Source: Escherichia phage LQ5. Taken from it: a stretch of 64,000 nucleotides of DNA. The translations under genes and the position numbers were made by a program. Below are positions 966 through 62,002 of this stretch, in pieces. Location of the stretch: sequence record OR677401; one strand, written 5' to 3'. Each line of letters begins with the position of its first letter. Position 1 is the stretch's first letter. The notes under the pieces were generated by a model that saw only the letters and a program-made list of their open reading frames with translations, had not been told where the DNA came from and ran no database searches.

Positions 966-1002
966 ATCAATAACGGAGGCTTCGGCCTCCTAATGAGGAA
1001 TT

Positions 1003-1200: not shown

Positions 1201-1501
1201 AATGATTAATTACCTGAATGTCGGTGAACGTGGTATCAAGATTTCTAATTTGCGTGGATTCCATAAAGCAGGTACTGTTTATTGTGCTAAGCTCGTTAAA
1301 CACCCGGGTGATGTTCATTACGCTTTTCTAGAATGCGATGAGGTGGTCGAAGGCGAATTTCCTTTAGCAGATTCTGATACTTTAGAACCCGACGACCGAA
1401 TTTATTACGGTGAACTTCATATTCGAGGCATTTATGGTGAAGACGAACCCGGGACTACTCCGATTGGCAGCGATGCCGACATTTACCCTGAAGACATCTG
1501 A
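1193..1501 (+). CDS. hypothetical protein
   Basis: 102-aa ORF, start overlaps upstream stop (coupled). Confidence 0.4.
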   Translation: MSKMINYLNVGERGIKISNLRGFHKAGTVYCAKLVKHPGDVHYAFLECDEVVEGEFPLADSDTLEPDDRIYYGELHIRGIYGEDEPGTTPIGSDADIYPEDI

Positions 1502-1514
1502 TTTAACAGGCGAA

Positions 1515-1991
1515 ATGAAGGTTAAGATTAAGGATACCGTACTGTATTCCTTAAGCCAAGACCCGTCCCAAGATAAGAAAGAAGTATTGACTCGGTGTGT
1601 CATTGCAACGTATGCCGAGTATATGGTTGCTGATTGGTTGAAAGGATATGTTAATAGTGGTCTAGAAGACCATGACGACCCTTATACCTATGCATGGGAT
1701 GTTTTAGCTCATCCTATGTACTGTGGACTACGCGTAGAGGTCAAGACCCATCAGTCGGATTCTAAGTGGATTTCCTGCACTACAGGATACTCCGGTGACT
1801 TCCCTTATGGAACAGGGATTAACCTGGGGCCGCTCTTGAATCATAAAGTTGCAGATTGTATAATTATATTCGACACTTCGGTAAATGAGGCAGGCGATGT
1901 CCTGTTCACTCCTAAGTTCTCTGGTGACAGAGAAGCCATCACAAAGCTAGTCCGTAAGAGCAATTACAACGGCTGGTATCTCGCCTTATAA
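1515..1991 (+). CDS. hypothetical protein (occupies the denB/ndd.x position of T4; identity not established)
   Basis: Track ORF 1410..1991; start moved to internal ATG (M36) to avoid 90-nt overlap; start uncertain. Confidence 0.35.
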   Translation: MKVKIKDTVLYSLSQDPSQDKKEVLTRCVIATYAEYMVADWLKGYVNSGLEDHDDPYTYAWDVLAHPMYCGLRVEVKTHQSDSKWISCTTGYSGDFPYGTGINLGPLLNHKVADCIIIFDTSVNEAGDVLFTPKFSGDREAITKLVRKSNYNGWYLAL

Positions 1992-2066
1992 ATTTTTAAA
2001 ATAGTATTTACATACGCCATGGATGGTGTTACTATCTTCCTATCAACTACACGAGAGGAAAATATT

Positions 2067-2294
2067 ATGACTTCTATTACTTATGTTAAAGCAATCAATC
2101 GTAAAATCGAAGAATATAAATTTGAGAATGGTAAAGTGTTTCACAAGCTTACCAATATTAAAACGGGTAATGTTCAAAAAGATTGGACTGAAGTTACCAC
2201 TCCTACAGTAATTAATCTTTACGGTTCTATCGAAAAGTATTGGGAATTTTTAGTAGGTTGGGCTAAACAGCATCCAAAACATTCTGTTGCTTAA
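2067..2294 (+). CDS. hypothetical small protein
   Basis: Track ORF 2019..2294; ATG at 2067 follows GAGG SD of the repeated leader cassette. Confidence 0.45.
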   Translation: MTSITYVKAINRKIEEYKFENGKVFHKLTNIKTGNVQKDWTEVTTPTVINLYGSIEKYWEFLVGWAKQHPKHSVA

Positions 2295-2350
2295 GTTATA
2301 ATGCCACGGATGGTGTTACTATCTTCCTATCAACTAATGAGGAGAACAAA

Positions 2351-2617
2351 ATGGATATCAAATTATATTACGCTAAACACAAAGTTACAGGTATGGTTGT
2401 TGCCGCTATGTATGATGCATCAGGTGAAGGTGATGATGTTACTACAGAGTTATCTCTTTCTGAATGTAAATTTCTCCGTCCCTTAATCGCATCAAAGGAA
2501 GATTTAGAAAAGCTTATTGATGGAAAACTGGATAATGTTGACGGCATAGATATTCTTTATGACCTCCGCACGGCATTGTACAGGGGATTGATTGAGATAA
2601 AAGAGGTGGTGTTTTGA
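2351..2617 (+). CDS. hypothetical small protein
   Basis: 88-aa ORF directly after second copy of leader cassette (GAGGAG-N6-ATG). Confidence 0.45.
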   Translation: MDIKLYYAKHKVTGMVVAAMYDASGEGDDVTTELSLSECKFLRPLIASKEDLEKLIDGKLDNVDGIDILYDLRTALYRGLIEIKEVVF

Positions 2618-2762
2618 GTAGCAAAACGTGGTGCCTTATTTGGATGGCCTGTATCCCAGTGATTTGCGTGTGTTTTAGTTTATTGTTGTGGAAATTGGCA
2701 TAAATCAGTATACATCTCCATTAATCATGATATTATAGACCTATCAACTAATGGAGATGATT

Positions 2763-2873
2763 ATGAAAAACTTACTTAAAGCAATTTGGAACATGTTTGT
2801 GTTGTTAATGGTATTGAGCATTTTCCCAATCGTTTTTATGATTGACCATGTACGTGTATTCTTTAACTTCTGA
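2763..2873 (+). CDS. putative 36-aa hydrophobic membrane peptide
   Basis: ATG after GGAGATG SD in third leader cassette; translation MKNLLKAIWNMFVLLMVLSIFPIVFMIDHVRVFFNF is a single TM helix; below the 60-aa track cutoff. Confidence 0.3.
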   Translation: MKNLLKAIWNMFVLLMVLSIFPIVFMIDHVRVFFNF

Positions 2874-2883
2874 GGAAAATATT

Positions 2884-3096
2884 ATGAAACTTTTTAAAGA
2901 TGTGGTAGTCGGCGAGAGCTTTGTATTGCATAATGGCCAACAACTGATTCGCATTTCTCCTTTGCAAGTTGGGACCGAATTACAACCTGTTAATGCTACA
3001 GACCTTTATGATTCAACTAAGCGTTTTTGTGTAGGCCCTAGTGTGCAATGCCTTACTGTTGATGAACTGATGGCTATTTCTGTTGACGCTGAATAA
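2884..3096 (+). CDS. hypothetical small protein
   Basis: Track ORF 2842..3096; ATG at 2884 preceded by TGAGGAAAATATT SD motif. Confidence 0.4.
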   Translation: MKLFKDVVVGESFVLHNGQQLIRISPLQVGTELQPVNATDLYDSTKRFCVGPSVQCLTVDELMAISVDAE

Positions 3097-3106
3097 GGAA
3101 AATATT

Positions 3107-3451
3107 ATGTCTAAATTATTTTTTGGTAATCGCAACATTATGTTCTTTAAACAGATTAGCATGTCAGAAACATTTGATTTAAGTTATTCGGGCGACACAA
3201 AAGCTGTTAACCTTAAAAATTTAGCGTCTGCAGAATTTGCATTCTATCAGGACCCTGAAACTGGTTTCTACAAATTTATTAAGTTCCGCATGACTATGGA
3301 CCGCGATTATCGTGACGTTTATTATACAAGTTATGAAAGTGCTATCAATGCAATTCGCGAAGCTTATGGATTGGATTCGTTGTCTCTTGACCGCCTGTAT
3401 AATGCAAGCCTTTACACCAGCGGATTTATTTTAGAACAACTTCAAAAATAG
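3107..3451 (+). CDS. hypothetical protein
   Basis: Track ORF 3083..3451; ATG at 3107 preceded by AAGGAAAATATT. Confidence 0.4.
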   Translation: MSKLFFGNRNIMFFKQISMSETFDLSYSGDTKAVNLKNLASAEFAFYQDPETGFYKFIKFRMTMDRDYRDVYYTSYESAINAIREAYGLDSLSLDRLYNASLYTSGFILEQLQK

Positions 3452-3528
3452 TTTACAACCTCGAGAATCATGTTATAATGGTTCTCGTTGACTGGATAAC
3501 AAAACATTAATCTACTGAGGAAATTGAT

Positions 3529-3978
3529 ATGAATACTTATATGACTCGCCGTAACGTTCTGTCTGCTGGTGCTACTACTGTTGCTTATGTTAAGAACGGT
3601 GAATACCAAAATGGTAAACCTTCTAAAGAAATCTCTGCTCAGCCAGGCTTCTACTTCTTTGTTAAAGGTGGAGCTGATTCTCGTGTCGTAGCGGCTCGTT
3701 TTTATGTCGGTAATCAACGTTCGGCCCAAGGGCTCGACGGTATCGTGGCTAACATTCGTAAGAAACGTTCTCAATCAGCTCGCACTATGGCAGTGAACGG
3801 TGTTGTGTATGAAGTTCTTTATGTACCGGCTTCTAAGATGAAACCCCTGACTACAGGTTTTGGTAAGGGTCAAATTGCAATGGCTTTCACTCGTAATCAT
3901 AGTTCCGACCTCCAGACACTGGAAGAAATGAACCGTATGTTGGCTGATAACTTTAAATTCATCCTGCAGGCTTACTAA
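3529..3978 (+). CDS. ndd: Ndd nucleoid-disruption protein
   Basis: 149 aa; C-terminus ...[11 protein letters not shown]...[24 protein letters not shown]...[20 protein letters not shown] matches T4 Ndd as I recall it. Confidence 0.85.
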
Positions 3979-4055
3979 TGAGTAATTTCCATAACGAGCA
4001 TGTGATGCAGTTCTATCGTAACAATCTTAAAACTAAAGGCGTCTTCGGACGCTAA
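3978..4055 (+). CDS. stp: Stp peptide (suppressor of three-prime phosphatase; modulator of the EcoprrI/PrrC anticodon-nuclease system)
   Basis: 25-aa [28 protein letters not shown] overlapping the ndd stop (TAATG); essentially identical to T4 Stp. Confidence 0.8.
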
Positions 4056-4065
4056 TGAGGAAAAT

Positions 4066-4227
4066 ATGGTTATCCTAGTTTTTATTGAACTTATTATGGC
4101 TATAGTCTGTTCAGTTTGCTTCTTTTTAGGTGTGTGGGCCCCTGGTCCGATATTCTTAAGTTTTCTGCTTATTGGTTGGGTTCTTTCTACTTTTGTCGGT
4201 TTACTTAAGACGATTAAAAATGATTAA
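4066..4227 (+). CDS. small membrane protein, Ac-like by position
   Basis: 53-aa hydrophobic ORF (MVILVFIELIMAIVCSVCFFLGVW...) after hairpin + TAATGAGGAAAATATG; T4 has the 51-aa membrane protein Ac here. Confidence 0.4.
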   Translation: MVILVFIELIMAIVCSVCFFLGVWAPGPIFLSFLLIGWVLSTFVGLLKTIKND

Positions 4228-4360
4228 TAAAATCCTGGGCTACTCGTTAGCCCTTGCTGCTTTATTAGTAGCACTGTATTATGGAGTAATGTTCGGACTT
4301 ATCCAAGTTGTGCTTTTTATTTCCGATGTTATTATGGCTATTCATTCACTAGTATGGTAA
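4220..4360 (+). CDS. small membrane protein (52.1-like by position)
   Basis: Track ORF 4172..4360; ATG at 4220 overlaps upstream stop (ATGATTAA); hydrophobic MINKILGYSLALAALLVALYYGVMFGLIQVVLFI... Confidence 0.4.
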   Translation: MINKILGYSLALAALLVALYYGVMFGLIQVVLFISDVIMAIHSLVW

Positions 4361-4364
4361 AATT

Positions 4365-5693
4365 ATGGAATTAACATCTCGTGGTTTAAAAAGTATTATC
4401 GACAACGAAGCATTGGCTTATGCAATGTATACTGTCGAAAACCGAGCCATTCCAAATATGATTGATGGCTTTAAACCTGTACAACGTTTTGTAGTGGCTC
4501 GTTGTCTTGATATGGCTCGCGGTAATAAAGAAAAATTCCACAAACTGGCTTCTATCGCTGGTGGTGTAGCCGACCTCGGATATCACCACGGTGAAGGTTC
4601 TGCTCAGGAAGCAGGGGCTTTGATGGCTAACACATGGAACAACAACTATCCATTGTTAGACGGTCAAGGTAACTTCGGTTCTCGATTGGTTCAAAAGGCT
4701 GCAGCCTCTCGTTATATTTTTGCTCGTATCGGAAGTAACTTTGCAAAAGTTTATAAGGACACAGAATATGCTCCGGTTCATGCGGATGTTGAACATAAGC
4801 CACCGGCTTTTTATCTGCCTATTATTCCTACTGTTCTTCTTAATGGCGTTTCCGGTATTGCAACTGGTTATGCAACTAATATTCTTCCTCATAGTTTTGA
4901 TTCTGTTAAGAAAGCTGTACTGCAAGTTCTTCAGGAAAAACGAGTAACCAAACCCAAAGTGGCTTATCCTGAATTCCGTGGTGAAGTTGTTGAGATTGAA
5001 CCTGGTAGTTATGAGATTCGTGGAACGTATAAGTTCACATCTCGAACCCAAATGCATATCACGGAAATCCCATACAAATATGACCGTGAAACATATGTGG
5101 CTAAGGTATTAGACCCTCTGGAAGACAAAGGGTACATCACATATGATGATGACTGTGACGAGAACGGTTTTGGCTTCAAGGTTAAGATTCGTAAAGAATA
5201 CGAATTGCCTACCGAAGAAAACAAGAAGCATGAAAAAATCATGAAGGACTTCGGGTTAATCGAACGTCGTTCACAAAACCTGACCGTCATTAATGAAAAA
5301 GGTAAACTTAAGGTTTACGAAGATGCAGTTGAACTGATTCGTGATTTCGTTGAGGTCCGTAAGACCTTTGTACAAAAACGTATTGATGGTAAAATCATCG
5401 AAACCGAAGAAGCTTTTAAACTAGCATTGGCTAAAGCCACATTCATCAAAGATGTTATTGACGGGACTGTAGTTATCCAAGGTAAGACTCGTAAGGTTTT
5501 AACTGAGGAATTGGCTGGTAATAAAGTCTACGGCGAATACGCTGATAAACTGGTTGCAATGAACATTTTCCATATCACATCCGATGAAGCCAAGAAACTG
5601 GCCCTCGAAGCCAAGGCTAAGAAAGAAGAGCATCAATACTGGAAATCTACTGATGTGGTAACTGAGTATGTTAAAGATTTGGAGGCTCTATGA
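4365..5693 (+). CDS. 52: DNA topoisomerase II medium subunit gp52
   Basis: 442 aa, same length as T4 gp52; long identical stretches (KSIIDNEALAYAMYTVENRAIPNMIDGFKPVQRF..., ...GNFGSR.VQKAAASRYIFAR...). Confidence 0.92.
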   Translation: MELTSRGLKSIIDNEALAYAMYTVENRAIPNMIDGFKPVQRFVVARCLDMARGNKEKFHKLASIAGGVADLGYHHGEGSAQEAGALMANTWNNNYPLLDGQGNFGSRLVQKAAASRYIFARIGSNFAKVYKDTEYAPVHADVEHKPPAFYLPIIPTVLLNGVSGIATGYATNILPHSFDSVKKAVLQVLQEKRVTKPKVAYPEFRGEVVEIEPGSYEIRGTYKFTSRTQMHITEIPYKYDRETYVAKVLDPLEDKGYITYDDDCDENGFGFKVKIRKEYELPTEENKKHEKIMKDFGLIERRSQNLTVINEKGKLKVYEDAVELIRDFVEVRKTFVQKRIDGKIIETEEAFKLALAKATFIKDVIDGTVVIQGKTRKVLTEELAGNKVYGEYADKLVAMNIFHITSDEAKKLALEAKAKKEEHQYWKSTDVVTEYVKDLEAL

Positions 5694-5793
5694 GCCTTGG
5701 AGTCGAGTTCTTGTTACTCTGTATCTTTGCTGTTATTCTGGGCCTGGCGACAGGCTTAGCTATAGGTTTAATAGCAGCTCACTTTAAAAAGTA
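5690..5793 (+). CDS. putative 34-aa hydrophobic peptide
   Basis: ATG overlapping gp52 stop; MSLGVEFLLLCIFAVILGLATGLAIGLIAAHFKK; followed by terminator; exact ends +/-1 nt. Confidence 0.3.
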
Positions 5794-5816
5794 AGGAACC
5801 TTCGGGTTCCTTTTTT
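5794..5816 (+). terminator. rho-independent terminator (GGAACC-UUCG-GGUUCC + U7)
   Basis: perfect 6-bp GC-rich stem, UUCG tetraloop, T-run. Confidence 0.7.
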
Positions 5817-5833
5817 GGTTTAGTGAAAAAAGT

Positions 5834-5862
5834 GTTTACTTCTGCTTTAAACATGATACTAT
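5834..5862 (+). promoter_or_regulatory. T4-type early promoter (-35 GTTTAC, 17-nt spacer, TGATACTAT extended -10)
   Basis: gtttac at 5834-5839, tactat at 5857-5862; a TGCTTTA MotA-box-like heptamer also lies inside. Confidence 0.6.
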
Positions 5863-5900
5863 AGACCTATCAAAACAATAGAGTGAAATGGAGATACAAA

Positions 5901-6536
5901 ATGTCTAAAATTACTTATATCATCAAAGCTTCTGAAGGCGCCCTGAATGAAAAAACCGCTTCAATCTTAGTACATATCATCAAGCATAACTTCATCACTT
6001 CAGGCGAAGTCCGTGAAGCCCTGAGTGAGCAATTTAGTGCTGTGGTAGTTAACTCTAATATCGGTGTATTGATTAAGAAAGGATTCATCGAAAAATCTGG
6101 TGATGGACTAGTGGCTACAGGTGAAGCAATGGACCTAGTTCAAAAAGCTGCCGACCTGTTCGCTTCTGAAAATGCTCCAGAGATGTTGGAAAAACGTAAA
6201 ACGCGTAGTTCACGTGGTGTTACTCCTGAAATGGTAACACTGGCTGATGAAGTTAAAGCTTTATTAGAAGACCGTATCGAGATTCGTGAAATTGCTGAAA
6301 ACCGTAGCAACCTTGAAGTTCGATTCGCTAAACGTACCAACGGTATTCGTCAAATCGAAGTCCGTCGTGATGGAATGATGCGTATCTTCGGTTATAATAT
6401 GACTGATAAAGAAAAACAGGTGTTTACTTCCTTGAATCTTGATGTTAAGATTAAGACTGGTGGTAAGAATACTTATATCGACTTCCAAAACGTATCATCT
6501 GAAGTTATCAAAACCGTAACCAACGCAATTATCTGA
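5901..6536 (+). CDS. motA: MotA middle-transcription activator
   Basis: MSKITYIIKAS...LNEKTA.IL...NSNIGVLIKKG..EKSGDGL..TGEA matches T4 MotA N-terminal domain; track ORF 5883 uses an upstream non-ATG start. Confidence 0.88.
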   Translation: MSKITYIIKASEGALNEKTASILVHIIKHNFITSGEVREALSEQFSAVVVNSNIGVLIKKGFIEKSGDGLVATGEAMDLVQKAADLFASENAPEMLEKRKTRSSRGVTPEMVTLADEVKALLEDRIEIREIAENRSNLEVRFAKRTNGIRQIEVRRDGMMRIFGYNMTDKEKQVFTSLNLDVKIKTGGKNTYIDFQNVSSEVIKTVTNAII

Positions 6537-8070: not shown

Positions 8071-8226
8071 ATGAGTCATAACTTAGAGAATACAGTAACA
8101 GGCATGCGTACACGTGAGCAGGAGGGCTTTGAGGAATTCCTGGGAGCTGATTTTAAGTTCCAGGAACCAATAGAAGAGATGTATCAGGAATATGTTAAAA
8201 AGAACGAAGAACATGTTTACAATCCC
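8071..8226 (+). CDS. possible 51-aa acidic small protein
   Basis: ATG after AAGG; MSHNLENTVTGMRTREQEGFEEFLGADFKFQEPIEEMYQEYVKKNEEHVYNP; overlaps the asiA promoter at its 3' end. Confidence 0.25.
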
Positions 8227-8243
8227 TAAGGATATGTTAGTAT
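8215..8243 (+). promoter_or_regulatory. T4-type early promoter upstream of asiA
   Basis: gtttac 8215-8220, 17-nt spacer, tagtat -10. Confidence 0.55.
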
Positions 8244-8284
8244 AGCCCTATCAGATAATGACGTACTGAATTGAAGAGAATATT

Positions 8285-8560
8285 ATGACTAAAATTGAAA
8301 TTGTTTCCGAAATTGCTACTATTGTTTCCATTTTGATTAAAACGGATTGTGAAGACATCATGCAACGTCGTGATGAGTTTATTGCCTTTTTGAATGAGTT
8401 GGGTATTCGTAATGAACATGGAAAGGAACTTAATGGTTTGTCTTATAACAAATTATTTAAGTCATTAACTGAAGATGAACGTGATACTCTTATTGAGCAA
8501 TTTAATGAAGGGTATGAAGATATACACCGCTATCTAATGATGTATACCTCCAATTTTTAA
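8285..8560 (+). CDS. asiA: AsiA anti-sigma-70 factor
   Basis: 91 aa; ...VASILIK...FIAFLNE.G......L....F.K....LTEDE...LIEQFNEG.E...RYL.MYT matches T4 AsiA. Confidence 0.88.
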   Translation: MTKIEIVSEIATIVSILIKTDCEDIMQRRDEFIAFLNELGIRNEHGKELNGLSYNKLFKSLTEDERDTLIEQFNEGYEDIHRYLMMYTSNF

Positions 8561-19265: not shown

Positions 19266-19294
19266 GTTTACTTCCTTAAAACCCATGATATAAT
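19266..19294 (+). promoter_or_regulatory. T4-type early promoter upstream of rnh (divergent from late P34)
   Basis: gtttac, 17-nt spacer, TGATATAAT extended -10. Confidence 0.6.
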
Positions 19295-19325
19295 GGACCT
19301 CTCAACTACTTGAACAGAGGTTCAT

Positions 19326-23808: not shown

Positions 23809-23833
23809 GGGAAGACTTCGGTCTTCCCTTTTT
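23809..23833 (+). terminator. rho-independent terminator after gene 32
   Basis: GGGAAGAC-UUCG-GUCUUCCC + U5. Confidence 0.75.
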
Positions 23834-23844
23834 GGCATTTAATG

Positions 23845-23873
23845 GTTTACAATGCCTTTAAACATGATACTAT
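23845..23873 (+). promoter_or_regulatory. T4-type early promoter (repeated promoter/leader cassette)
   Basis: gtttac, 17-nt spacer, TGATACTAT. Confidence 0.6.
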
Positions 23874-23902
23874 AGACCTATCAACTACATGAGGAAATAA
23901 AA

Positions 23903-24289: not shown

Positions 24290-24290
24290 T

Positions 24291-24553: not shown

Positions 24554-24582
24554 GTTTACAACACCTTTAAACATGATACTAT
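24554..24582 (+). promoter_or_regulatory. T4-type early promoter (repeated cassette)
   Basis: gtttac, 17-nt spacer, TGATACTAT. Confidence 0.6.
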
Positions 24583-24614
24583 AGACCTATCAACTAATGA
24601 GTGAGGAAAATAAA

Positions 24615-24842
24615 ATGGCTAAGGTTAATATTGATATCGTTGATTTTGAATACACTTACGAAGTTATCCGTAATCGTTATCCTTCTTTGAGTATGACTTA
24701 CATTAAAGATACCCAATTCTTTAGTATTCAAATTGAAGTCCAAGGTCCTCTTGAAGACCTTACCCGCTTTATGCAAAATGAATATTGTGACGGTATGCAT
24801 GCTGAAGACGCTAAATTTTATATGGGCTTGATTCAAGCTTAG
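24615..24842 (+). CDS. hypothetical small protein
   Basis: Track ORF 24597..24842; ATG (MAKVNIDIV...) after GAGGAAAATAAA. Confidence 0.45.
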
Positions 24843-24901
24843 TATACAAACCAACGGGAACATGATAATATGTTCCCTCAACAAAAAATGAGGAAATTAA
24901 A

Positions 24902-25279
24902 ATGATGGAAACTGGTAAATTTTACGTATTGGACCCTGCTGCTAAAAAACAATTCGTCGCTGGTAGTCCTGATGATAATTATAATTCATGCATGGTCAAG
25001 TTGATGGAACAACACGGCAATTCCTTCAAAGTTCTGGATATGTGTTATATTGAAGGCAATTATTTTGTTGAAAAAGTTGAAATGAAAGATGGCACCATCC
25101 TGAATAGTATGGGTGGCGCTGATGAGTACTTTGAACTCGCTGAATGGGAATTCTGTCACTTCCTGGAAGTTGATGGCGATGCTCCTGATGTTGATACCCA
25201 AACCATTCATGTGCAAGTCAATCACAAAAATGCCGCTGAAGTCATTGCACTGATTAAAGCGACTTTTGATATTCGGTAA
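24902..25279 (+). CDS. hypothetical protein (paralogue of 23903..24289)
   Basis: 125 aa; see paralogue. Confidence 0.5.
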   Translation: MMETGKFYVLDPAAKKQFVAGSPDDNYNSCMVKLMEQHGNSFKVLDMCYIEGNYFVEKVEMKDGTILNSMGGADEYFELAEWEFCHFLEVDGDAPDVDTQTIHVQVNHKNAAEVIALIKATFDIR

Positions 25280-25285
25280 AAAGTA

Positions 25286-25315
25286 GTGTACAGCCAAATG
25301 GGGCTATGATATAAT
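25286..25315 (+). promoter_or_regulatory. early-type promoter with inverted repeat (TGGGGC/GCCCCA) bracketing the -10 TATAAT
   Basis: gtgtac -35-like, 18-nt spacer, TGATATAAT. Confidence 0.5.
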
Positions 25316-25355
25316 GGCCCCATACTGAGATAACAACTAAACACCGGAGAATAAA

Positions 25356-31060: not shown

Positions 31061-32209
31061 ATGATTGAATTATATGATAACTTGATGGCCCTGGTTAAAA
31101 ACTCGACTAAATCTAAGTTCTTCTTTAAAGACTTTCAGAGTGCGCTAGGAGTCAACTATCGCATCTTTAGTTATAACTATGCATCGTACAGTGATTGGTT
31201 GGAAGACGGCGCACTAGAGTGCCGAGGCATTATGTTTGAAATGGACGAGAACGGTCCTGTACGTATTGCTGCTCGTCCTATGCAAAAGTTCTTTAACCTC
31301 GACGAAAACCCACTGACTATCGGTCTGGATTTGTCGCCAGAAAATATCGACCTCGTGATGGCTAAGGAAGATGGTTCTCTGATTTCTACATTCATGGACC
31401 GACAGTATCTTTCTGTTAAATCTAAAGGCTCTATCCATTCATCAATGGTGCATGATTCTTTACGGTTCCTTCGTCTCCCTGAGAACGAGGCTTTTGCTGC
31501 CCGTCTGGAAGAAATCACCAAAGCTGGGTATACCTGCAACCTTGAATATGTTGCACCTACCAACCGTATCGTGCTGGCTTACCAAGAAACAAATCTCATC
31601 CTGTTGAACGTTCGTAATAATGAAACAGGTGAATATATCCCGTATGCTGAATTGTTTAAGGACGGCGCGCTGCGTAAGCATTTGGTTGAAAGCTATGACC
31701 TCGCTGAAGGTGATTTCGTAGAAAACATCCGTAAGCAGGAAGGCATTGAAGGTTTCATCTTTGTACTGAAAGATGGTACGTTCTTTAAACTCAAAACCGC
31801 CTGGTACAGTGCACTGCATCATACCAAAGATTCCATTAACAACAACGAACGTTTGTTTGAAGTTGTAGTGGCTGGTGGAACTGATGACCTTCGTGGTCTG
31901 TTCAGTACGGATTCGTTTGCTATCGAGAAAATCGATGCCTTTGAACGCATCCATTTAGATTACTTAGAACAATCATTGGCCTTGTTAGAAGCAGCGTATT
32001 CTCAGCTCAAGGGCCGGGACCGTAAGGACTACGCCGTTACAGGTCAATTAATCCTTAAGGACTTCCCAGGGTTGTTCTCTATTCTTATGCAGGCGTACGT
32101 AGGTGGCATTAATTATGATACGGTTGTAGACCAGATTAACTCTGTGTTCTTGAAAAACCATAAAGCCCAAATCCCTGAAAAATATTTGAAAGAAATTGTG
32201 GTAGAGTAG
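31061..32209 (+). CDS. rnlA: RNA ligase 1
   Basis: 382 aa; YRIFSYNYASYSDWL...ALECRGIMFEMD...KEDGSL (ligase motif I lysine)...VAPTNRIVLAYQE..IILLNVR.NETGEYI matches T4 Rnl1. Confidence 0.92.
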   Translation: MIELYDNLMALVKNSTKSKFFFKDFQSALGVNYRIFSYNYASYSDWLEDGALECRGIMFEMDENGPVRIAARPMQKFFNLDENPLTIGLDLSPENIDLVMAKEDGSLISTFMDRQYLSVKSKGSIHSSMVHDSLRFLRLPENEAFAARLEEITKAGYTCNLEYVAPTNRIVLAYQETNLILLNVRNNETGEYIPYAELFKDGALRKHLVESYDLAEGDFVENIRKQEGIEGFIFVLKDGTFFKLKTAWYSALHHTKDSINNNERLFEVVVAGGTDDLRGLFSTDSFAIEKIDAFERIHLDYLEQSLALLEAAYSQLKGRDRKDYAVTGQLILKDFPGLFSILMQAYVGGINYDTVVDQINSVFLKNHKAQIPEKYLKEIVVE

Positions 32210-32237
32210 TTTACATCTCCTCATGATGTGTTAGTAT
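32209..32237 (+). promoter_or_regulatory. T4-type early promoter (cassette variant)
   Basis: gtttac, 17-nt spacer, tagtat -10. Confidence 0.55.
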
Positions 32238-32266
32238 AGACTTACCAACTAATGAGGAGAAAACAA

Positions 32267-33395: not shown

Positions 33396-33499
33396 TTGAG
33401 ACATGTGTTTGCGGTTGGGATGCCGTTAGATTTGGCGCTGCATTCTTTTGCTTTGGTATCGTGTTCAGCATGTGTATGCATGGTCTTTTCGGAAAGTAG
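33392..33499 (+). CDS. possible 35-aa hydrophobic peptide
   Basis: ATG overlapping the o-spanin stop; MIETCVCGWDAVRFGAAFFCFGIVFSMCMHGLFGK. Confidence 0.25.
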   Translation: MIETCVCGWDAVRFGAAFFCFGIVFSMCMHGLFGK

Positions 33500-33528
33500 T
33501 TTACAAACTCTTGGGAGCAGAGTATAAT
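33499..33528 (+). promoter_or_regulatory. early promoter with inverted repeat (GGAGCA/TGCTCC) bracketing -10 TATAAT
   Basis: gtttac, 18-nt spacer, tataat. Confidence 0.55.
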
Positions 33529-33562
33529 GCTCCTACGGATTATAAAAATTGAGGAAATTATT

Positions 33563-35458: not shown

Positions 35459-35520
35459 GTGTTTACTTTCACCAAGGACGGTGATATGATGACCTTACCG
35501 AAACAAATGAGGAAATCGAA

Positions 35521-39257: not shown

Positions 39258-39282
39258 GGGACTCTTCGGAGTCCCATTTTTG
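39258..39282 (+). terminator. rho-independent terminator
   Basis: GGGACUC-UUCG-GAGUCCC + AUUUUUG. Confidence 0.75.
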
Positions 39283-39303
39283 TTTCTAAATCTTTAAAAA
39301 AGG

Positions 39304-39332
39304 GTGTACATCTCCGGTAGGCATGATACTAT
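39304..39332 (+). promoter_or_regulatory. early promoter (GTGTAC -35 variant, TGATACTAT -10)
   Basis: 17-nt spacer; followed by shared leader ...accaaataatac.aaaacaaactggagaataaaatg. Confidence 0.5.
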
Positions 39333-39373
39333 AGACATGTACCAAATAATACTAAAACAAACTGGAGAATAAA

Positions 39374-39706
39374 ATGAAAACTGTAAATCTGAATGCATCT
39401 GTTAAAGCTAAATGTTTCAACGGTGAATATCAAGAAACCATGTGGGTCCTGACTGCAGTTGAAGGTGATATCATCGAAGTTGAAACAACTGAAGGTATGG
39501 GTACTGATTTTACATTCACCATCGAGCTTCACAACTTCTTTACAGGTTGGATTTATGAACTGAAAACTGTAATTACTGGTCGTATTGAAGAAAACAAAAA
39601 TGGTGAATTCTATTATGTTAATGCCCGTACACGTGCTGAACGTCTGATTGCTCAGATGAAAAAAGTTGGTAAACTTGATATGAAAAATTGGAATGTTGTG
39701 AAATAA
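39374..39706 (+). CDS. hypothetical protein (30.x island)
   Basis: 110-aa ORF with GGAGAATAAA-ATG. Confidence 0.45.
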   Translation: MKTVNLNASVKAKCFNGEYQETMWVLTAVEGDIIEVETTEGMGTDFTFTIELHNFFTGWIYELKTVITGRIEENKNGEFYYVNARTRAERLIAQMKKVGKLDMKNWNVVK

Positions 39707-39709
39707 ATG

Positions 39710-39738
39710 TTTTACTTTGGTACAGGTTGTGTTATTAT
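39710..39738 (+). promoter_or_regulatory. early promoter with inverted repeat (GGTACAGG/CCTGTACC) bracketing -10 TATTAT
   Basis: ttttac -35-like, TGTTATTAT extended -10; leader duplicated from 39333-39373. Confidence 0.5.
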
Positions 39739-39779
39739 AGACCTGTACCAAATAATACGAAAACAAACTGGAGAATAAA

Positions 39780-40145
39780 ATGAACTACATCAACTTCGAA
39801 CGTAAATATGTTTCTAACGGTATCGCTGGTTCTTCTGAAGTTATTTGCCTGTGGAAACACAACAACGGCGCGGTGTGCGAAATCGAACAGTGCATGACTC
39901 CTAACTACGTTTATATGCGCTTTGAAAATGGTATTACGGTTTCAATCACATTGGAAGGTTCTACTTTTAAAATCGCTTTAGATGATGATTTCCGTCAACG
40001 TGATTTAGGTACCCATCCTTGCTGGAACGGTGTTAATCGTAAGCTTCTGGTTAAAACTTGGATTCGTCACATCCTGAGCAACCGAGCTAAACCTGAACAC
40101 CTGGAAGCAATCTTTGATGTAGTTCTGAACGAATTCGACATCTAA
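39780..40145 (+). CDS. hypothetical protein (30.x island)
   Basis: 121-aa ORF with GGAGAATAAA-ATG. Confidence 0.45.
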   Translation: MNYINFERKYVSNGIAGSSEVICLWKHNNGAVCEIEQCMTPNYVYMRFENGITVSITLEGSTFKIALDDDFRQRDLGTHPCWNGVNRKLLVKTWIRHILSNRAKPEHLEAIFDVVLNEFDI

Positions 40146-40186
40146 TCTTAAAAATGGAGGCTTCGGCCTCCTTTGAGGAAAATATT

Positions 40187-48005: not shown

Positions 48006-50129
48006 ATGGAAAATTTAAACGAAGTTTTTGATAGCGATTCCGCTAAAAACTATCCGGTAACAAATCTTAAACCTGGCTCAGGCGTACCGCAGATTTTTGC
48101 GGTACATGCTCCTGGTAATGACAATTTAGTAGCACGTATGGTATCTTATGCGTCTGAAGGCGATGCTATTAAAATGGTTAAGCCAGGCGATAAGTACGTC
48201 CATGTCATCCTAATGAGTTTATCTGCTAAAGGCGCCCCGGCAGAACTCAAGGGTGGTTTGGGTACCGATCCACTCGGTACACTGAACACCATTTTCGATA
48301 CCATATATGAACAAATAAACAAACTTAAAATGGACGCGGTTTTGTTCCGTTTCCCTACTAAGAAAATGAAAGGTAAAGGTCCTACCGTTCAGCGCGTATT
48401 AGCTCGCTTGGCTATGGCTCGTACCGGTGGTAAGTTTAAAGTTGTTGACGACATGTTCCAATTCAGCGGAAAACATACCTACGCTCTTTTAGTACGTCGT
48501 GGTGCTAATATTGAAGATATCAAGGGTATGCCTGAAATTAATGCCGATCTTTATACTAAAGTTGAGTCTAAAGTTGGCGAAGTTTATGTTTCTAAGAAAA
48601 CCGGCCAGGCCGTAAGTAAGGTCGAAGCCGTAGCGGCATCTATTGCACAAGTTGAAGAGAAACGTACTGATAAGGCTGTCATTACTCGTACTAAGATTTC
48701 GCGTCGTATGGCAGCGGCGGCGCAGTATTCTACTGCTGAGCCTGAAACTTTGTCCCCTAAAGAATTGCAGGTTTATAACGAGTTTGAAGCTTCTGTACCG
48801 GTTCACACGGCTGAAGGCCCTGAGAACGAAGGTATTGAACAGATTAGTCAGAACTTTAAAAAAGGTGCCATTACTAAAATGCGTCAGGCTTCTCAGTTTA
48901 AATCTAAGAGCGAGGACCTTGCCAACTTTAGATACACTATTGCTCTCACACACGCTTTAATGACTGATAGTAAATTTAAACTAAATTATGCTAATAGAGA
49001 TAAACAAGGGTTTGAAATTTACTCTAATAATATGGCATTTTTTAATACAGAAGTCGATAGACTTTTAAGTGGCCTTTCGCAAATCAATACAACCAATAGT
49101 CTGGATATTATTAAGAAAATTGTTAATAACCTGAGTACCCGTTTTAAGGGTTCCCCTTCAGAGAAAGCATCTAGAATTGCTTTCGCTATGGAAGCCGTTT
49201 ATAAACTGGTTAACGATTCTATTAGTGATGCATATGCTTATTCAGGCGAGCTCATTAAACCTAAGGACCTAACCAAAGATGAAAGCAATGCTATTATTGA
49301 ATATTGCGCGGCTGAATATGCTCCTATGAACTTATTCCTTTTAGGTAAACCTGAATCCGAAAACAATACAACGGCTATTAAATTGATTAAGGATTTAGAC
49401 TCAGCATTTACTAAGGGTATTAAACTTCCTAAGGGTACTATTTTGTATCGTGGTCAGGATTTGCCATACAAAATTCTGCGCCATAATATCGATAACAAAA
49501 CATTTTACTTTAAGAACTTTGTGTCAGCCTCATTAAAGCCTAACATCTTTGGTGAATTCGGTAAAAATTATATGGCCCTCGACAACCAAGCCGTTTTTGT
49601 TGGTGGTGAAGGTTCTTTGTCCTCCGCTGATGAGTTGTTTAAATTGGCTAGTGGTAGTTCATCTGATGTGGGTGAAGTCGATGACGAAGAGGTAGAATGG
49701 GAAGAAGACGAGTTTGGTAATCCAATTGCACCTGAAGGTCCTGCAGATAGAATTGCTGAAATTGGTATGGTTATTCGAGGTGCTGAAGCAGTTAAAGTTA
49801 TCGCTCCTGGTGACCTTACAGAATATGCCGAAGAAGCAGAAATTATCCTTCCGCGTGGATTATTGTTGAAGGTTGATAAAGTAGCGGCTTTTGCCATGAA
49901 TGATAGAGTATCTCACAAATACCTTATGGAAGCTACCGTAACACCTCCTTCAGAGCTCAGCGAATCTGTTTACGATGGTGACCATTTGATGGAAACTGGT
50001 GAAGTTCGCCTGATGGATGGATTTAGTCAATTCTTGGTTAATGAATCCGTTTCTGAAAGCAACGAAGCTATGGAAATCCTTGCCGCGTCTTTGGATATCT
50101 CTTCTTTATCAAATAAATTCAAAATGTAG
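48006..50129 (+). CDS. Alt-like ADP-ribosyltransferase paralogue 3
   Basis: 707 aa; same N-terminal module and R/S-x-S/E mART signature (ILYRGQ, FVSASL, EIILPRGLLLKV); distinct acidic insert (DDEEVEWEEDEFG). Confidence 0.8.
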   Translation: MENLNEVFDSDSAKNYPVTNLKPGSGVPQIFAVHAPGNDNLVARMVSYASEGDAIKMVKPGDKYVHVILMSLSAKGAPAELKGGLGTDPLGTLNTIFDTIYEQINKLKMDAVLFRFPTKKMKGKGPTVQRVLARLAMARTGGKFKVVDDMFQFSGKHTYALLVRRGANIEDIKGMPEINADLYTKVESKVGEVYVSKKTGQAVSKVEAVAASIAQVEEKRTDKAVITRTKISRRMAAAAQYSTAEPETLSPKELQVYNEFEASVPVHTAEGPENEGIEQISQNFKKGAITKMRQASQFKSKSEDLANFRYTIALTHALMTDSKFKLNYANRDKQGFEIYSNNMAFFNTEVDRLLSGLSQINTTNSLDIIKKIVNNLSTRFKGSPSEKASRIAFAMEAVYKLVNDSISDAYAYSGELIKPKDLTKDESNAIIEYCAAEYAPMNLFLLGKPESENNTTAIKLIKDLDSAFTKGIKLPKGTILYRGQDLPYKILRHNIDNKTFYFKNFVSASLKPNIFGEFGKNYMALDNQAVFVGGEGSLSSADELFKLASGSSSDVGEVDDEEVEWEEDEFGNPIAPEGPADRIAEIGMVIRGAEAVKVIAPGDLTEYAEEAEIILPRGLLLKVDKVAAFAMNDRVSHKYLMEATVTPPSELSESVYDGDHLMETGEVRLMDGFSQFLVNESVSESNEAMEILAASLDISSLSNKFKM

Positions 50130-50158
50130 TTTACAACACCACAAGGATGTGGTACTAT
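50129..50158 (+). promoter_or_regulatory. T4-type early promoter
   Basis: gtttac overlapping the alt-3 stop, 18-nt spacer, GGTACTAT. Confidence 0.5.
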
Positions 50159-50186
50159 TACCTTACACAAACATGAGGAGAACATT

Positions 50187-61901: not shown

Positions 61902-61923
61902 ATGGGCCGCAAGGCCCATTTTG
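61902..61923 (+). terminator. rho-independent terminator after hoc
   Basis: AUGGGCC-GCAA-GGCCCAU + UUUG. Confidence 0.6.
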
Positions 61924-62002
61924 CATTAAAGTACAAAATTCCTGTTTACAAGTTAAAAATTCTATGTTAAGATGGGTTTACCAACTCAACGAGAGAATTG
62001 TT

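What the first reader, a model, noticed from the sequence alone, without database searches (positions are those of the whole stretch)
2003..2762. Repeated early promoter/leader cassette copies upstream of small ORFs (PeSL-like modules)
A ~35-45 nt block (...catgatactatagacctatcaactaatgaggag...) consisting of an extended -10, a conserved transcribed leader and a GAGG Shine-Dalgarno recurs with few changes at about 2014-2056, 2300-2345, 2724-2762, 5850-5885, 23856-23895, 24568-24605 and 32222-32262, usually with a GTTTAC -35 17 nt upstream. Most copies precede short ORFs of unknown function. Such promoter cassettes can act as portable recombination substrates that shuffle small accessory genes between T4-type genomes.
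Basis: seen in the sequence. Interest (0 to 1): 0.55.

Follow-up and report, generated by a model that had tools for sequence, protein, structure and literature searches.

The report
Repeated early-promoter cassettes that shuffle phage genes
The repeated block is the early promoter, short leader and ribosome-binding site of a T4-like coliphage, and comparison with sister phages shows small genes gained, lost or swapped exactly at these repeats, a process already described as PeSL shuffling in other T4-type phages.

Summary
The window comes from a Dhakavirus, the JS98/IME08/Bp7/QL01 group of T4-like coliphages. All seven listed copies exist. They belong to a family of at least 18 same-strand early promoters: A-rich UP region, GTTTAC, 17-18 nt spacer, TGnTAcTAT, C-rich discriminator, +1 A, leader AUCAACUA...GAGG, ATG.

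The copies are more alike than one generic consensus predicts. One subfamily is evolving in concert: the motA promoter here resembles this phage's frd.3 promoter more than it resembles T4's motA promoter.

Comparison with seven relatives shows gene gain and loss at the cassettes:
- ORF 2067-2294 sits between two 34-nt repeats and is missing, with one hybrid cassette, from Bp7, IME08 and dhabil.
- One or two extra ORFs lie between duplicated motA cassettes in relatives.
- AnYang lacks 23906-24554 between two cassettes.
- Four more events have one breakpoint in or next to a cassette.

Three caveats apply. The three copies at 2003-2762 have no stem-loop. The CTATCAAC start region is an old feature shared with T4 and also found at middle promoters. 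About half of all indels are homing endonucleases or ORF-precise insertions with only 3-12 nt of microhomology.

Verdict: a correct call of a known mechanism (PeSL) in a genus where it has not been analysed. Moderate to low interest.

The parts
2006..2066 (+). Early-promoter cassette 1, downstream of denB. -35 ATTTAC 2006-2011, TGt + -10 TACTAT 2030-2035, predicted +1 about 2042, SD GAGAGG, ATG 2067. Contains repeat copy 2016-2049.
   Evidence: Orthologous to the T4 early-promoter-like site downstream of denB at about T4 167086 (40/62 identical, spacer 12/18).
2067..2294 (+). 75-aa ORFan bounded by the two 34-nt repeats. This is the unit that is present or absent among relatives.
   Evidence: Absent from Bp7, IME08 and dhabil with a 287-bp indel equal to the repeat spacing. 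Found in only 5 phages among 50,697 records and in one IMG/VR contig. No Pfam or PHROG family.
2293..2350 (+). Partial cassette copy 2. The 34-nt repeat 2303-2336 covers spacer, TGt, -10 TACTAT 2317-2322, discriminator and ATCAACTA. The -35 is degenerate, there is no UP region, SD is GAGGAG, ATG 2351.
   Evidence: (D7, 97%).
2351..2617 (+). 88-aa ORF (phrog_2390, unknown function) driven by copy 2. In relatives it follows the single hybrid cassette directly.
2708..2762 (+). Cassette 3. -35 GTATAC, -10 TATTAT 2731-2736, AGACCTATCAACTAATGGAG, ATG 2763. Drives a 36-aa Ndd.4-like membrane peptide (2763-2873).
   Evidence: dhabil carries an extra 63-aa ORF between two copies of this cassette.
5793..5900 (+). 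motA cassette. C(UUCG)G terminator hairpin 5793-5812 plus T-run, A-rich UP, -35 GTTTAC 5834-5839, -10 TACTAT 5857-5862, leader, GGAGATACAAAATG, motA ATG 5901.
   Evidence: upstream hairpin z=-3.3. The 78-nt block 5826-5903 is present twice in Bp7 and dhabil and three times in IME08, with extra ORFs between copies.
8215..8284 (+). asiA early-promoter cassette (GTTTAC, N17, TAGTAT, AGCCCTATCAGATAATGA).
   Evidence: (D4).
19266..19325 (+). rnh early-promoter cassette (GTTTAC, N17, TATAAT, GGACCTCTCAACTAC).
   Evidence: The leader resembles that of the T4 promoter-like site upstream of rnh, by eye in the two printed sequences.
23809..23902 (+). frd.2 cassette. UUCG terminator hairpin 23809-23828, -35 GTTTAC 23845-23850, -10 23868-23873, ATG 23903.
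   Evidence: Left partner of the AnYang deletion.
24554..24614 (+). frd.3 cassette, the copy closest to the family consensus. ATG 24615.
   Evidence: AnYang lacks 23906-24554 and keeps one chimeric cassette with a 63-nt junction overlap.
24842..25355 (+). Window-type module: promoter with hairpin across the -10 (24856-24877), FRD2 paralogue ORF 24902-25279, then a second hairpin promoter (25300-25321) upstream of frd.1.
   Evidence: In six relatives a 51-54-nt TATAGCCTTATCAACTAA cassette occupies this place instead. The ORF is 88% identical at nucleotide level to JS10 frd.2a, which sits in another slot. Hairpins z=-5.8 and -4.6.
32209..32266 (+). alc early-promoter cassette (GTTTAC, N17, TAGTAT, AGACTTACCAACTAATGAGGAG).
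   Evidence: Pfam ALC.
33499..33562 (+). Early promoter with a hairpin across the -10 (33513-33533). Relatives have a 444-474-bp ORF inserted at its ATG(A).
39258..40173 (+). UUCG hairpin 39258-39275, cassette 39304 (30.8), cassette 39710 (30.7, 12-bp stem across the -10), and terminator GGAGGCTTCGGCCTCC.
   Evidence: AnYang and JS10 lack 39336/50-40174 and carry one cassette with a ...TATCAACTAATGATGAGG leader. Hairpins, Pfam.
3451..3528 (+). ndd early promoter with a hairpin across the -10 (3462-3487). Family member without the CCTATCAACTA leader.
   Evidence: z=-2.9.
35461..35520 (+). Early promoter upstream of a 184-aa ORF (ATG 35521), in the position of the T4 cd.3 promoter.
   Evidence: Closest match is the T4 site at about 133331 (44/62). 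The T4 record notes an early promoter Pe133295 between cd.2 and cd.3.
50129..50186 (+). Early promoter upstream of the alt.-3-like DUF5498 ORF.
61902..62002 (+). Terminator hairpin 61902-61919 plus an early promoter upstream of a DUF2774 ORF.

Best explanation
The repeats are sigma-70-dependent immediate-early promoters of a Dhakavirus (T4-like) phage. Each is packaged with a 20-35-nt leader that starts AUCAACUA and ends in a GAGG-type Shine-Dalgarno sequence and the start codon. Each copy fires host RNA polymerase into the gene or genes downstream right after infection.

The copies are dispersed 45-80-bp direct repeats, all in one orientation, with 11-15 exact core copies per genome. The phage's very active homologous recombination and replication machinery can therefore pair non-allelic copies. 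Unequal exchange between two copies deletes or duplicates the promoter-plus-ORF unit between them. Exchange with a copy on another co-infecting genome or excised fragment inserts or swaps such units. Ectopic conversion keeps a subfamily of copies nearly identical within a genome.

Shown here: the anatomy, the excess similarity, the concerted evolution, and chimeric cassettes at indel junctions in sister genomes.

Inferred, not shown: promoter activity, the exact start sites, the recombination enzymes, and any circular intermediate.
For: Identity and context. The window is 97.6% identical to QL01, and the gene order is rIIB-denB-ndd-52-motA-asiA.

Promoter anatomy. A-rich UP region, GTTTAC, TGnTAnnAT and C at -3/-2 are the information-rich columns. 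This matches the published T4 early consensus (PMC1524935, PMC2988021). Copies sit upstream of motA, asiA, alc, rnh and frd genes. Three copies have their closest match in the promoter-like site upstream of the orthologous T4 gene (2006, 35461, 39710 at 40-44 of 62).

Excess similarity. The pairwise-identity sd and the top pairs exceed all 2000 PWM simulations.

Concerted evolution. The window's motA promoter is closest to the window's frd.3 promoter (48/62) and matches no T4 promoter better than 37/62. T4's motA promoter is closest to T4's ndd.6 promoter (50/62).

Clean cassette-to-cassette indels, each leaving a single chimeric cassette at the empty site:
- ORF75 between the 34-nt repeats, a 287-bp indel equal to the repeat spacing.
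- An extra ORF at the 2708 cassette in dhabil.
- One or two extra ORFs between 78-nt motA cassette copies in Bp7, dhabil and IME08. The window's motA leader is a chimera whose crossover must lie in GGAGATACAAAATG.
- AnYang lacks 23906-24554, with a 63-nt overlap.

One-sided events occur at 23917 (an frd.2 paralogue inserted 15 nt past the frd.2 cassette's ATG in JS10 and dhaeg), 24836-25346, 33562 and 39336-40174.

Junction homology is 31-78 nt at cassette events and 3-12 nt at the nine non-cassette junctions compared (Mann-Whitney p=0.003).

Genus-wide, the exact 17-mer precedes at least 30 different ORF starts. Five of 36 upstream contexts join more than one downstream sequence. The context downstream of gene 52 joins four.

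An FRD2-family ORF occupies different promoter-headed slots in different genomes.
Against: No transcript or recombination data exist for this phage. Everything functional is inferred.

Enrichment of indels at cassette-bearing gene boundaries over other boundaries is modest: roughly 10/17 against 17/55, Fisher p about 0.04, from my approximate hand counts.

About half of the indels are not cassette-related. These are a GIY-YIG homing endonuclease at 20833-21519, a replacement at 22163-22874, an nrdB intron in Bp7, and ORF-precise insertions at stop/start overlaps.

Any autonomous early ORF needs a promoter. Some duplicated promoters may therefore have arrived with their ORF rather than mediating its arrival.

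The direction of each event (insertion or deletion) is mostly unpolarised.

Only seven relatives were examined in detail.

The CTATCAAC start region is also conserved in T4 and at MotA-box middle promoters. That part of the similarity is functional constraint, not shared mobility.
Confidence: 0.82

Rival explanations
1. They are simply good early promoters. All the similarity comes from selection for a very strong UP/-35/TGn/-10/start-site design, and indels lie next to them only because every independently expressed early ORF must carry one. On this view the repeats play no causal role in gene shuffling.
For: The CTATCAAC(TA) start region and TACTAT -10 are shared with T4 early-promoter-like sites and with MotA-box middle promoters at 38073 and 42227. 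This shows functional constraint independent of the cassette. Several promoters are conserved orthologously with T4. Boundary-level enrichment of indels is only about 3-fold.
Against: The normally unconstrained 17-nt spacer is nearly identical among non-orthologous promoters within this genome (16/18 for 23845 against 24554) but differs from the T4 orthologues (7-9/18). Overdispersion exceeds the PWM model. Empty sites carry one chimeric cassette whose left and right halves match the two flanking copies. Copy 2293 is truncated exactly at the homology edge. Junction homology is 31-78 nt against 3-12 nt elsewhere.
Confidence: 0.12
2. The cassettes are recognition sites of a dedicated, integron-like site-specific recombination system that excises and inserts promoter-ORF cassettes.
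For: Arbiol et al. raise this possibility for the GGGG...CCCC stem-loops of RB49/phi1 PeSLs (PMC2839356). The cassette-ORF organisation resembles gene cassettes.
Against: Crossover points fall at different places in the cassette: spacer to +8 for ORF75, around the -35 in dhabil, the -10/discriminator at 39336, and SD-ATG at motA and 23906. The three copies in the finding have no hairpin. No integrase or recombinase gene was seen in the annotated neighbourhoods. This pattern fits homology-dependent exchange.
Confidence: 0.03
3. The conserved transcribed part (AUCAACUA...GAGG) is an RNA-level regulatory element, for example a shared target for an endoribonuclease such as RegB at GGAG or for a translational regulator. 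That function, rather than promoter function or recombination, would explain the repeat.
For: The start region is conserved across genera and across promoter classes. Many copies carry GGAG or GAGG in the SD. From general knowledge, T4 RegB cleaves GGAG in early SD regions.
Against: Information content falls quickly after +8-10. Outside the SD the leaders differ in sequence and in length, 20-43 nt. No Rfam family matches. The promoter-to-+12 segments of the CCTATCAACTA-type copies show no significant fold (z -1.0 to +0.7), and their leaders are only 20-35 nt. The strongest conservation lies upstream of the start site, so it is read as DNA, not RNA.
Confidence: 0.03

Closest known systems
PeSL (promoter-early stem-loop) cassettes of T4-type phages: RB49/phi1 (Arbiol et al. 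2010, PMC2839356); T4/PST and KVP40/nt-1 (Comeau et al. 2014, PMC4122927)
   Same: Composite intergenic repeat made of an AT-rich region, a sigma-70-like early promoter, SD and ATG. Concentrated in hyperplastic regions next to small ORFs of unknown function. Indels and replacements between sister phages have junctions inside the motif, including between the -10 and the ATG. The denB-ndd locus is one of the published T4/PST examples (ndd.4/.5 exchange, Fig. 6A). JS98 is mentioned as having PeSL-like sequences near g43.
   Different: The three copies in the flagged interval, and six others, have no stem-loop. Where present, the stem-loops are C(UUCG)G terminator hairpins upstream of the -35, or hairpins across the -10, not the poly-G/poly-C stems of RB49. 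The promoter type is GTTTAC...TAcTAT, as in T4/PST. Mini-circles and promoter or terminator activity were not tested. No systematic description for the JS98/Dhakavirus group was found in the searchable literature.
Bacteriophage T4 early promoters (Pe)
   Same: GTTTAC at -36 to -31, A-rich UP element, TGn extended -10, C preference at -3 to -1 (PMC1524935, PMC2988021). The same ATCAACTA start sequence occurs at the T4 promoter-like sites upstream of ndd.6, ndd.4 and motA. T4 also has near-identical promoter subfamilies of its own, for example the sites at about 136336 and 123093, 56/62 identical.
   Different: Spacer and discriminator sequences are lineage-specific (CTTTAAACATGA...AGACCT here...GTGG...ACAACT or TACCCT in T4). 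Non-orthologous promoters within a genome are more alike than orthologues between genera.
Morons of lambdoid and HK97-like phages
   Same: A single accessory gene with its own promoter, often with a terminator, inserted between neighbouring genes. Several units here are promoter, ORF and hairpin.
   Different: Morons are thought to move by illegitimate recombination without conserved flanking repeats (discussion in PMC2839356). Here the flanks are a shared repeat family, and junctions show 31-78 nt of homology.
Integron gene cassettes
   Same: Small promoter-dependent ORF units exchanged at a repeated flanking element. A circular intermediate has been proposed for PeSLs.
   Different: No integrase, no attC-like folded site, variable crossover positions, and the repeat supplies the promoter to each unit.

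Membership tests
PeSL (promoter-early stem-loop) cassette | Sigma-70-like early promoter (-35, about 17-nt spacer, -10) | tested here: met
   All 7 listed copies have TGnTAnnAT. Four have exact GTTTAC at 17 nt, two have one mismatch, and copy 2293 has a degenerate -35. This is a sequence test only. Activity was not measured.
PeSL (promoter-early stem-loop) cassette | Stem-loop (terminator or attenuator) within or next to the promoter | tested here: not met
   For the copies in the flagged interval (2006, 2293, 2708), no fold is better than shuffles (z -1.0 to +0.3). The same holds for 8215, 19266, 24554, 32209, 35461 and 50129. The feature is met elsewhere in the family: upstream UUCG or GCAA hairpins at 5834, 23845, 39304 and 61944 (z -2.2 to -3.7), and hairpins across the -10 at 3451, 24842, 25286, 33499 and 39710 (z -2.9 to -5.8).
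PeSL (promoter-early stem-loop) cassette | [quoted passage not shown] | tested here: met
   A-run at -42 to -38. GAGG/GGAG lies 5-9 nt before the ATG in all copies, and leaders are 20-35 nt. Copy 2293 lacks the AT-rich part.
PeSL (promoter-early stem-loop) cassette | Located in hyperplastic regions next to ORFs that differ between close relatives, with indel or replacement junctions inside the motif | tested here: met
   Four clean cassette-to-cassette indels and four one-sided events among seven relatives. Mosaic joints occur genus-wide.
PeSL (promoter-early stem-loop) cassette | Formation of excised mini-circles, and measured promoter and terminator activity | not testable with these tools
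   Requires inverse PCR on infected cells or virions, and reporter fusions.
T4-type early promoter (Pe) | GTTTAC -35, UP element, TGn, -10 TAnnnT, located 5' of early genes in the transcription direction | tested here: met
   Copies lie upstream of motA, asiA, alc, rnh, frd.1-3, 30.7 and 30.8. All are on the + strand. Three copies are closest to the corresponding T4 sites (2006, 35461 and 39710 at 40-44 of 62).
T4-type early promoter (Pe) | Transcription immediately after infection, independent of phage protein synthesis | not testable with these tools
   No transcript data are available.
Integron-like site-specific cassette system | Dedicated recombinase plus a fixed crossover point in a structured site | tested here: not met
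   Crossovers fall at different positions in the block. The flagged copies have no hairpin. No recombinase is annotated in the neighbourhoods.
Known RNA family (Rfam) | Match to a curated covariance model | tested here: not met
   No hit at gathering score in 64 kb. Only a chance-level hit (E=0.7) in 1900-2900.

The most novel reading that the evidence does not exclude
The 10-nt start region CT|ATCAACTA stays constant in both T4 and Dhakavirus while the spacers and discriminators around it have diverged, and it also occurs at MotA-dependent middle promoters. It could therefore be more than an optimised initiation site. It might be a shared 5'-end tag on prereplicative transcripts, or a DNA site at the start point, read by a phage or host factor that controls stability, modification, translation or promoter escape of early mRNAs as a class. 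The recombination role of the cassettes would then be a by-product of conserving that signal.
Probability: 0.1. Interest if true: 0.55.

Novelty: new member of a known kind. Interest (0 to 1): 0.3.

Why it matters
The result shows in a fourth lineage of T4-like phages (Dhakavirus, widely used in phage-therapy cocktails) that early-promoter cassettes mark the seams where small accessory genes are added, lost or moved. It adds a clear signature of concerted evolution among the promoters. This helps with annotation, because it predicts about 18 early transcription units and several unannotated small ORFs. It explains why gene content differs in the denB-ndd, 52-motA, 32-frd and rIII-30.6 regions of otherwise 95% identical phages. 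It also identifies natural, tolerated insertion points, each with a built-in promoter, for engineering. It does not reveal a new mechanism.

Tried and rejected
The family is graded, so I switched to the 11-mer core, repeat finding and a PWM.
- The generic sigma-70/terminator scan was too noisy to use. It was replaced by targeted folding with shuffles. A second scan call failed on the length limit.
- Rfam searches of the whole window and of 1900-2900 found nothing, so an RNA-element reading was set aside.
- Minus-strand copies: the only near match (39176-39186) has no promoter context. The PWM scan gives no minus-strand hit above the shuffle range.
- Origin of the ORFan 2067-2294: tblastn of 50,697 phage records found only five near-identical phages. 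An IMG/VR scan found one contig, which is QL01. There is no Pfam or PHROG hit. No donor was found. I ran no further search on this side question.
- I checked whether indel junctions could all be explained by cassettes. They cannot: homing endonucleases and stop/start microhomology insertions account for about half.
- The copy reported by the repeat finder at 42227, and a new PWM hit at 38073, turned out to be MotA-box middle promoters, not early cassettes.
- The first PWM simulation timed out and was rerun in vectorised form.
Full report
**What the window is.** Megablast of 1500-6500 gives 97.6% identity over 100% of the query to Escherichia phage QL01. It also matches about 48 near full-length relatives of the JS98/IME08/Bp7 group, genus Dhakavirus, Tevenvirinae. 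The annotation of QL01 laid over the window gives rIIB, denB.1, denB (to 1991), several small ORFs, ndd (3529-3978), gene 52 (4365-5693), motA (5901-6536), arn-region ORFs and asiA (8285-8560). The t and tail-fibre genes follow on the other strand. From about 19.3 kb the + strand carries rnh, dsbA, 33, 59, 32, frd.2/3/1, frd, td, nrdA/B, denA, rnlA, alc, pseT, cd, 31, rIII, 30.x, ligase and three alt paralogues. The flagged interval is therefore the denB-ndd region, a classic variable region of T-even genomes.

**Checking the observation.**
- The 11-mer CCTATCAACTA is exact at five sites. With up to 1 mismatch it gives 8 hits against 1.08 expected, and no shuffle reaches 8.
- The repeat finder recovers families of 5-7 copies of 30-56 nt, plus a 34-nt pair (2016-2049 and 2303-2336) with one difference.
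- The quoted sequence is a composite consensus, not any one copy.
- A scan for GTTTAC-like, 16-18 nt, TAnnnT, followed by curation for intergenic position and a downstream SD-ATG, gives 18 members, all on the + strand.
- A PWM built from -17 to +12 finds no comparable minus-strand hit.

**Anatomy.** Aligned on the -10, the informative columns are:
- an A-run at about -42 to -38
- GTTTAC
- (C)ATGA, which includes the TGn extended -10
- TAcTAT
- C at -3/-2 and T at -1
- a graded ATCAACTA from +1

The SD lies 5-9 nt before the ATG. Predicted leaders are only 20-35 nt. This matches the published T4-type early promoter: GTTTAC at -36 to -31, UP element, TGn, and a C preference at -3 to -1 (PMC1524935; 'uber' UP/-35/TGn/-10 promoters, PMC2988021).

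The genes served include motA, asiA, alc (Pfam ALC), rnh, Frd.1, Frd.2 and Frd.3, gp30.7 and gp30.8, small membrane peptides, and ORFans.

I drew 2000 sets of 18 sequences from the window's own promoter PWM. That is conservative, because the subfamilies inflate the PWM. The observed spread of pairwise identity (sd 6.18) exceeds every simulation (maximum 4.86). The five most similar pairs average 44.6 of 62 identical positions, against a simulated maximum of 41.0. So there are subfamilies.
- One group is 2708, 5834, 23845 and 24554. The last three share CTTTAAACATGATACTATAGACCTATCAA, which includes 12 nt of the spacer.
- A second is the pair 2006 and 2293.
- A third is the pair 39304 and 39710.

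**Comparison with T4.** I fetched T4 119000-168903 and scanned it the same way. Two things emerge.

First, ATCAACTA after TACTAT-N6 is also the start region of the T4 promoter-like sites upstream of ndd.6, ndd.4 and motA. Related forms (ACCAAAACAAATGAGG and others) recur in both phages. The same CTATCAAC also follows a MotA-box middle promoter in the window (TATGCTTTA-N12-TATTAT, -10 at 38073). The first 8-10 transcribed bases are therefore an old, function-linked part of T-even promoters, not a signature of a mobile element.

Second, the rest of the cassette evolves in concert within genomes.
- The window's motA promoter is closest to the window's frd.3 promoter (48/62) and matches no T4 promoter better than 37/62.
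- T4's motA promoter is closest to T4's ndd.6 promoter (50/62) and matches window promoters at 35/62 or less.
- Spacer identity is 14-16 of 18 within the window subfamily, against 7-9 of 18 to T4.
- Other promoters behave as ordinary orthologues. The denB-downstream promoter 2006 matches the T4 site at about 167086 at 40/62. Promoter 35461 matches the T4 site at about 133331 at 44/62. The 30.7 promoter, with its conserved hairpin, matches at 43/62.

**Do cassette-bounded ORFs come and go as units?** I fetched the homologous regions of QL01, Bp7, IME08 and dhabil, and of AnYang, JS10, QL01, IME08, Bp7 and dhaeg. I chained BLAST alignments against the window and read the junctions.

Clean cassette-to-cassette events:
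1. ORF 2067-2294 (75 aa) lies between the two 34-nt repeats. Bp7, IME08 and dhabil lack it. They have one cassette whose left flank equals copy 1 and whose right flank equals copy 2. The indel is 287 bp, exactly the repeat spacing. Copy 2 in the window is truncated at the edge of homology, with no UP region and a degenerate -35.
2. dhabil has an extra 63-aa ORF between two copies of the 2708 cassette.
3. The 78-nt motA cassette (5826-5903) is single in the window and in QL01. It is double in Bp7 and dhabil and triple in IME08, with one or two extra ORFs and a second terminator hairpin between copies. The window's motA leader carries the distal copy's leader fused to motA, so the exchange point lies in the shared GGAGATACAAAATG.
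4. AnYang lacks 23906-24554 (frd.2 and the following ORF) and keeps one chimeric cassette, with a 63-nt overlap.

One-sided events:
- In six relatives a 51-54-nt ...TATAGCCTTATCAACTAA cassette sits where the window has hairpin promoter, FRD2-paralogue ORF and hairpin promoter (24836-25346). That ORF is 88% identical in DNA to JS10 frd.2a, which occupies a different promoter-headed slot. IME341 shares the window's arrangement.
- A 444-474-bp ORF is inserted at the ATG(A) behind promoter 33499 in four relatives.
- AnYang and JS10 lack 30.8 and 30.7 (39336/50-40174). Their left junction is at TACTATAGA, and their leader is a consensus-type ...TATCAACTAATGATGAGG that is not present at either window junction. 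This implies exchange with a third cassette.
- JS10 and dhaeg carry an extra frd.2 paralogue (351-357 bp) inserted just inside the frd.2 ORF, 15 nt past the cassette's ATG at about 23917, with a 19-20-nt overlap.

**What is not cassette-mediated.** These events are unrelated to the cassettes:
- a GIY-YIG homing endonuclease gene at 20833-21519, present only in AnYang among six relatives
- a replacement at 22163-22874
- an intron with endonuclease in Bp7 nrdB
- at least seven ORF-precise insertions at stop/start overlaps (25603, 26177, 27095, 34767, 36297-36630, 37196-37515, 40467)

The nine non-cassette junctions I compared carry 3-12 nt of microhomology, such as ATGATTAA, AAATGA or TAATG. Junction homology is 31-78 nt at the cassette events and 3-12 nt at these (Mann-Whitney p=0.003). 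By my approximate count, 10 of 17 cassette-bearing gene boundaries and 17 of 55 other boundaries carry an indel among these relatives (Fisher p about 0.04). The enrichment is real but modest. The stronger argument is the structure of the junctions.

**Genus-wide view.** The exact 17-mer TACTATAGACCTATCAA occurs in 73 IMG/VR stretches, with 11-15 copies in each complete Dhakavirus genome. The 89 distinct contexts precede at least 30 different ORF starts. I clustered 350-nt flanks from 83 usable instances (82 in IMG/VR, one in the window). This gave 36 upstream and 33 downstream contexts in 43 combinations. Five upstream contexts join more than one downstream sequence, and the gene-52-end context joins four. 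Eight downstream contexts have more than one upstream partner. No control set was run for this, so it is descriptive.

The ORFan 2067-2294 is found in only five phages of 50,697 records and in one IMG/VR contig. It has no family. This fits a recent acquisition rather than repeated loss.

**Stem-loops.** Folding with shuffles shows strong C(UUCG)G or GCAA terminator hairpins just upstream of promoters 5834, 23845, 39304 and 61944. It shows hairpins spanning the -10 at 3451, 24842, 25286, 33499 and 39710. Both are PeSL subclasses described for phi1/RB49 (PMC2839356). The three copies inside the flagged interval, and six others, have none. They are promoter-leader cassettes without the 'SL'.

**Mechanism.** The best reading is that these are immediate-early promoters whose dispersed, co-oriented, 45-80-bp similarity makes them substrates for the phage's homologous recombination system. 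The outcomes are deletion or duplication of the intervening unit, insertion or swap by exchange with another genome or fragment, and ectopic conversion that homogenises a subfamily. Crossover points are spread over the block: around the -35, from the spacer to +8, at the -10/discriminator, and at SD-ATG. This argues for homology-dependent rather than site-specific exchange. Promoter activity, start sites, the enzymes involved and any mini-circle intermediate are inferred from the T4, RB49 and phi1 literature, not shown here.

**Comparison with what is known.** This is the PeSL phenomenon of Arbiol et al. 2010 (PMC2839356) and Comeau et al. 2014 (PMC4122927). The latter paper uses the same locus in T4 and PST (ndd.4/.5 exchange) as an example. 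JS98 is mentioned once as having PeSL-like sequences. I found no systematic account for this genus.

The finding is therefore a correct recognition of a known mechanism in a new lineage. It comes with two useful refinements. Concerted evolution of a promoter subfamily contrasts with orthologous conservation of other promoters. Cassette-mediated events can be separated from events at stop/start microhomology and from homing-endonuclease insertions.

I rate novelty as a new member of a known kind, and interest at 0.3.

Noticed in passing
window 2614-2703 (+): An unannotated 29-aa hydrophobic micro-ORF (MSSKTWCLIWMACIPVICVCFSLLLWKLA). Its TTG start overlaps the stop of ORF 2351-2617, and a GAGG lies 7 nt upstream. 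It ends 5 nt before the -35 of cassette 2708. It resembles the tiny membrane peptides (ndd.2a to ndd.6) of the T4 denB-ndd region. QL01 annotates nothing there.
   Followed up: partly
window 25603, 26177, 27095, 34767, 36297-36630, 37196-37515, 40467: A second class of gene gain and loss: whole ORFs inserted or lost precisely at stop/start overlaps inside operons, with only 3-12 nt of junction identity (ATGATTAA, AAATGA, CTATAA, TAATG, AATGAAATTT). Two of these ORFs were present in the window and in none or few of the six relatives compared (36271-36642, absent from four of the six; 37187-37492, absent from all six). Neither has a Pfam family.
   Followed up: partly
window 20833-21519 and 22153-22782 (+): A GIY-YIG/I-TevI-type homing endonuclease gene lies between genes 33 and 59. 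Among six relatives only AnYang has it. A second variable ORF (209 aa, no Pfam hit) lies between genes 59 and 32, where AnYang and Bp7 carry a different annotated homing endonuclease.
   Followed up: partly
window 38052-38078 and 42207-42232 (+): MotA-box middle promoters (TATGCTTTA-N12-TATTAT and TTGCTTTTGG...TATAAT). Their start regions carry the same CTATCAAC or ...GACTAATGAGG motif as the early promoters, so the start-site consensus is shared across promoter classes.
   Followed up: partly
window 975-990, 5793-5812, 23809-23828, 39258-39275, about 40155-40170: Intergenic terminator hairpins almost all use a C(UUCG)G tetraloop. The 16-mer GGAGGCTTCGGCCTCC occurs twice, after rIIB and after 30.7. 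This repeated hairpin family could itself offer short recombination homology.
   Followed up: no
window 44134-50100 (+): Three tandem alt (RNA polymerase ADP-ribosyltransferase) paralogues, 64-76% identical over blocks of 216-269 nt (repeat families D1, D2, D5). Bp7 and IME08 annotate two copies, and three are annotated in the QL01 stretch.
   Followed up: no
window 22838-22886 (+): An AT-only run with a tandem (TTAA/TAAT)n repeat (...TAATAATTAATTAATTAATTAAATAAATAAGGTAAATAATATG) lies directly upstream of the gene 32 start. From general knowledge of T4 this looks like the gp32 autoregulatory translational operator. No Rfam hit.
   Followed up: no
window 9462-9587 (- strand coding): GCCACCACC/GCCGCC-rich direct repeats (family D15). 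In the tail-fibre adhesin region these would encode glycine-rich runs on the minus strand, as in gp38-type adhesins. Not examined further.
   Followed up: no
L011 (T4), promoter-like sites at about T4 136336 (upstream of alc) and 123093 (upstream of alt.-3): Two T4 early-promoter-like sites 13 kb apart are 56/62 identical, including the whole spacer (GTTTACaagtccctcgtgttgtgtTATAGTagtcttACTrACATAACATGAGGA). T4 therefore has its own homogenised promoter pairs.
   Followed up: partly
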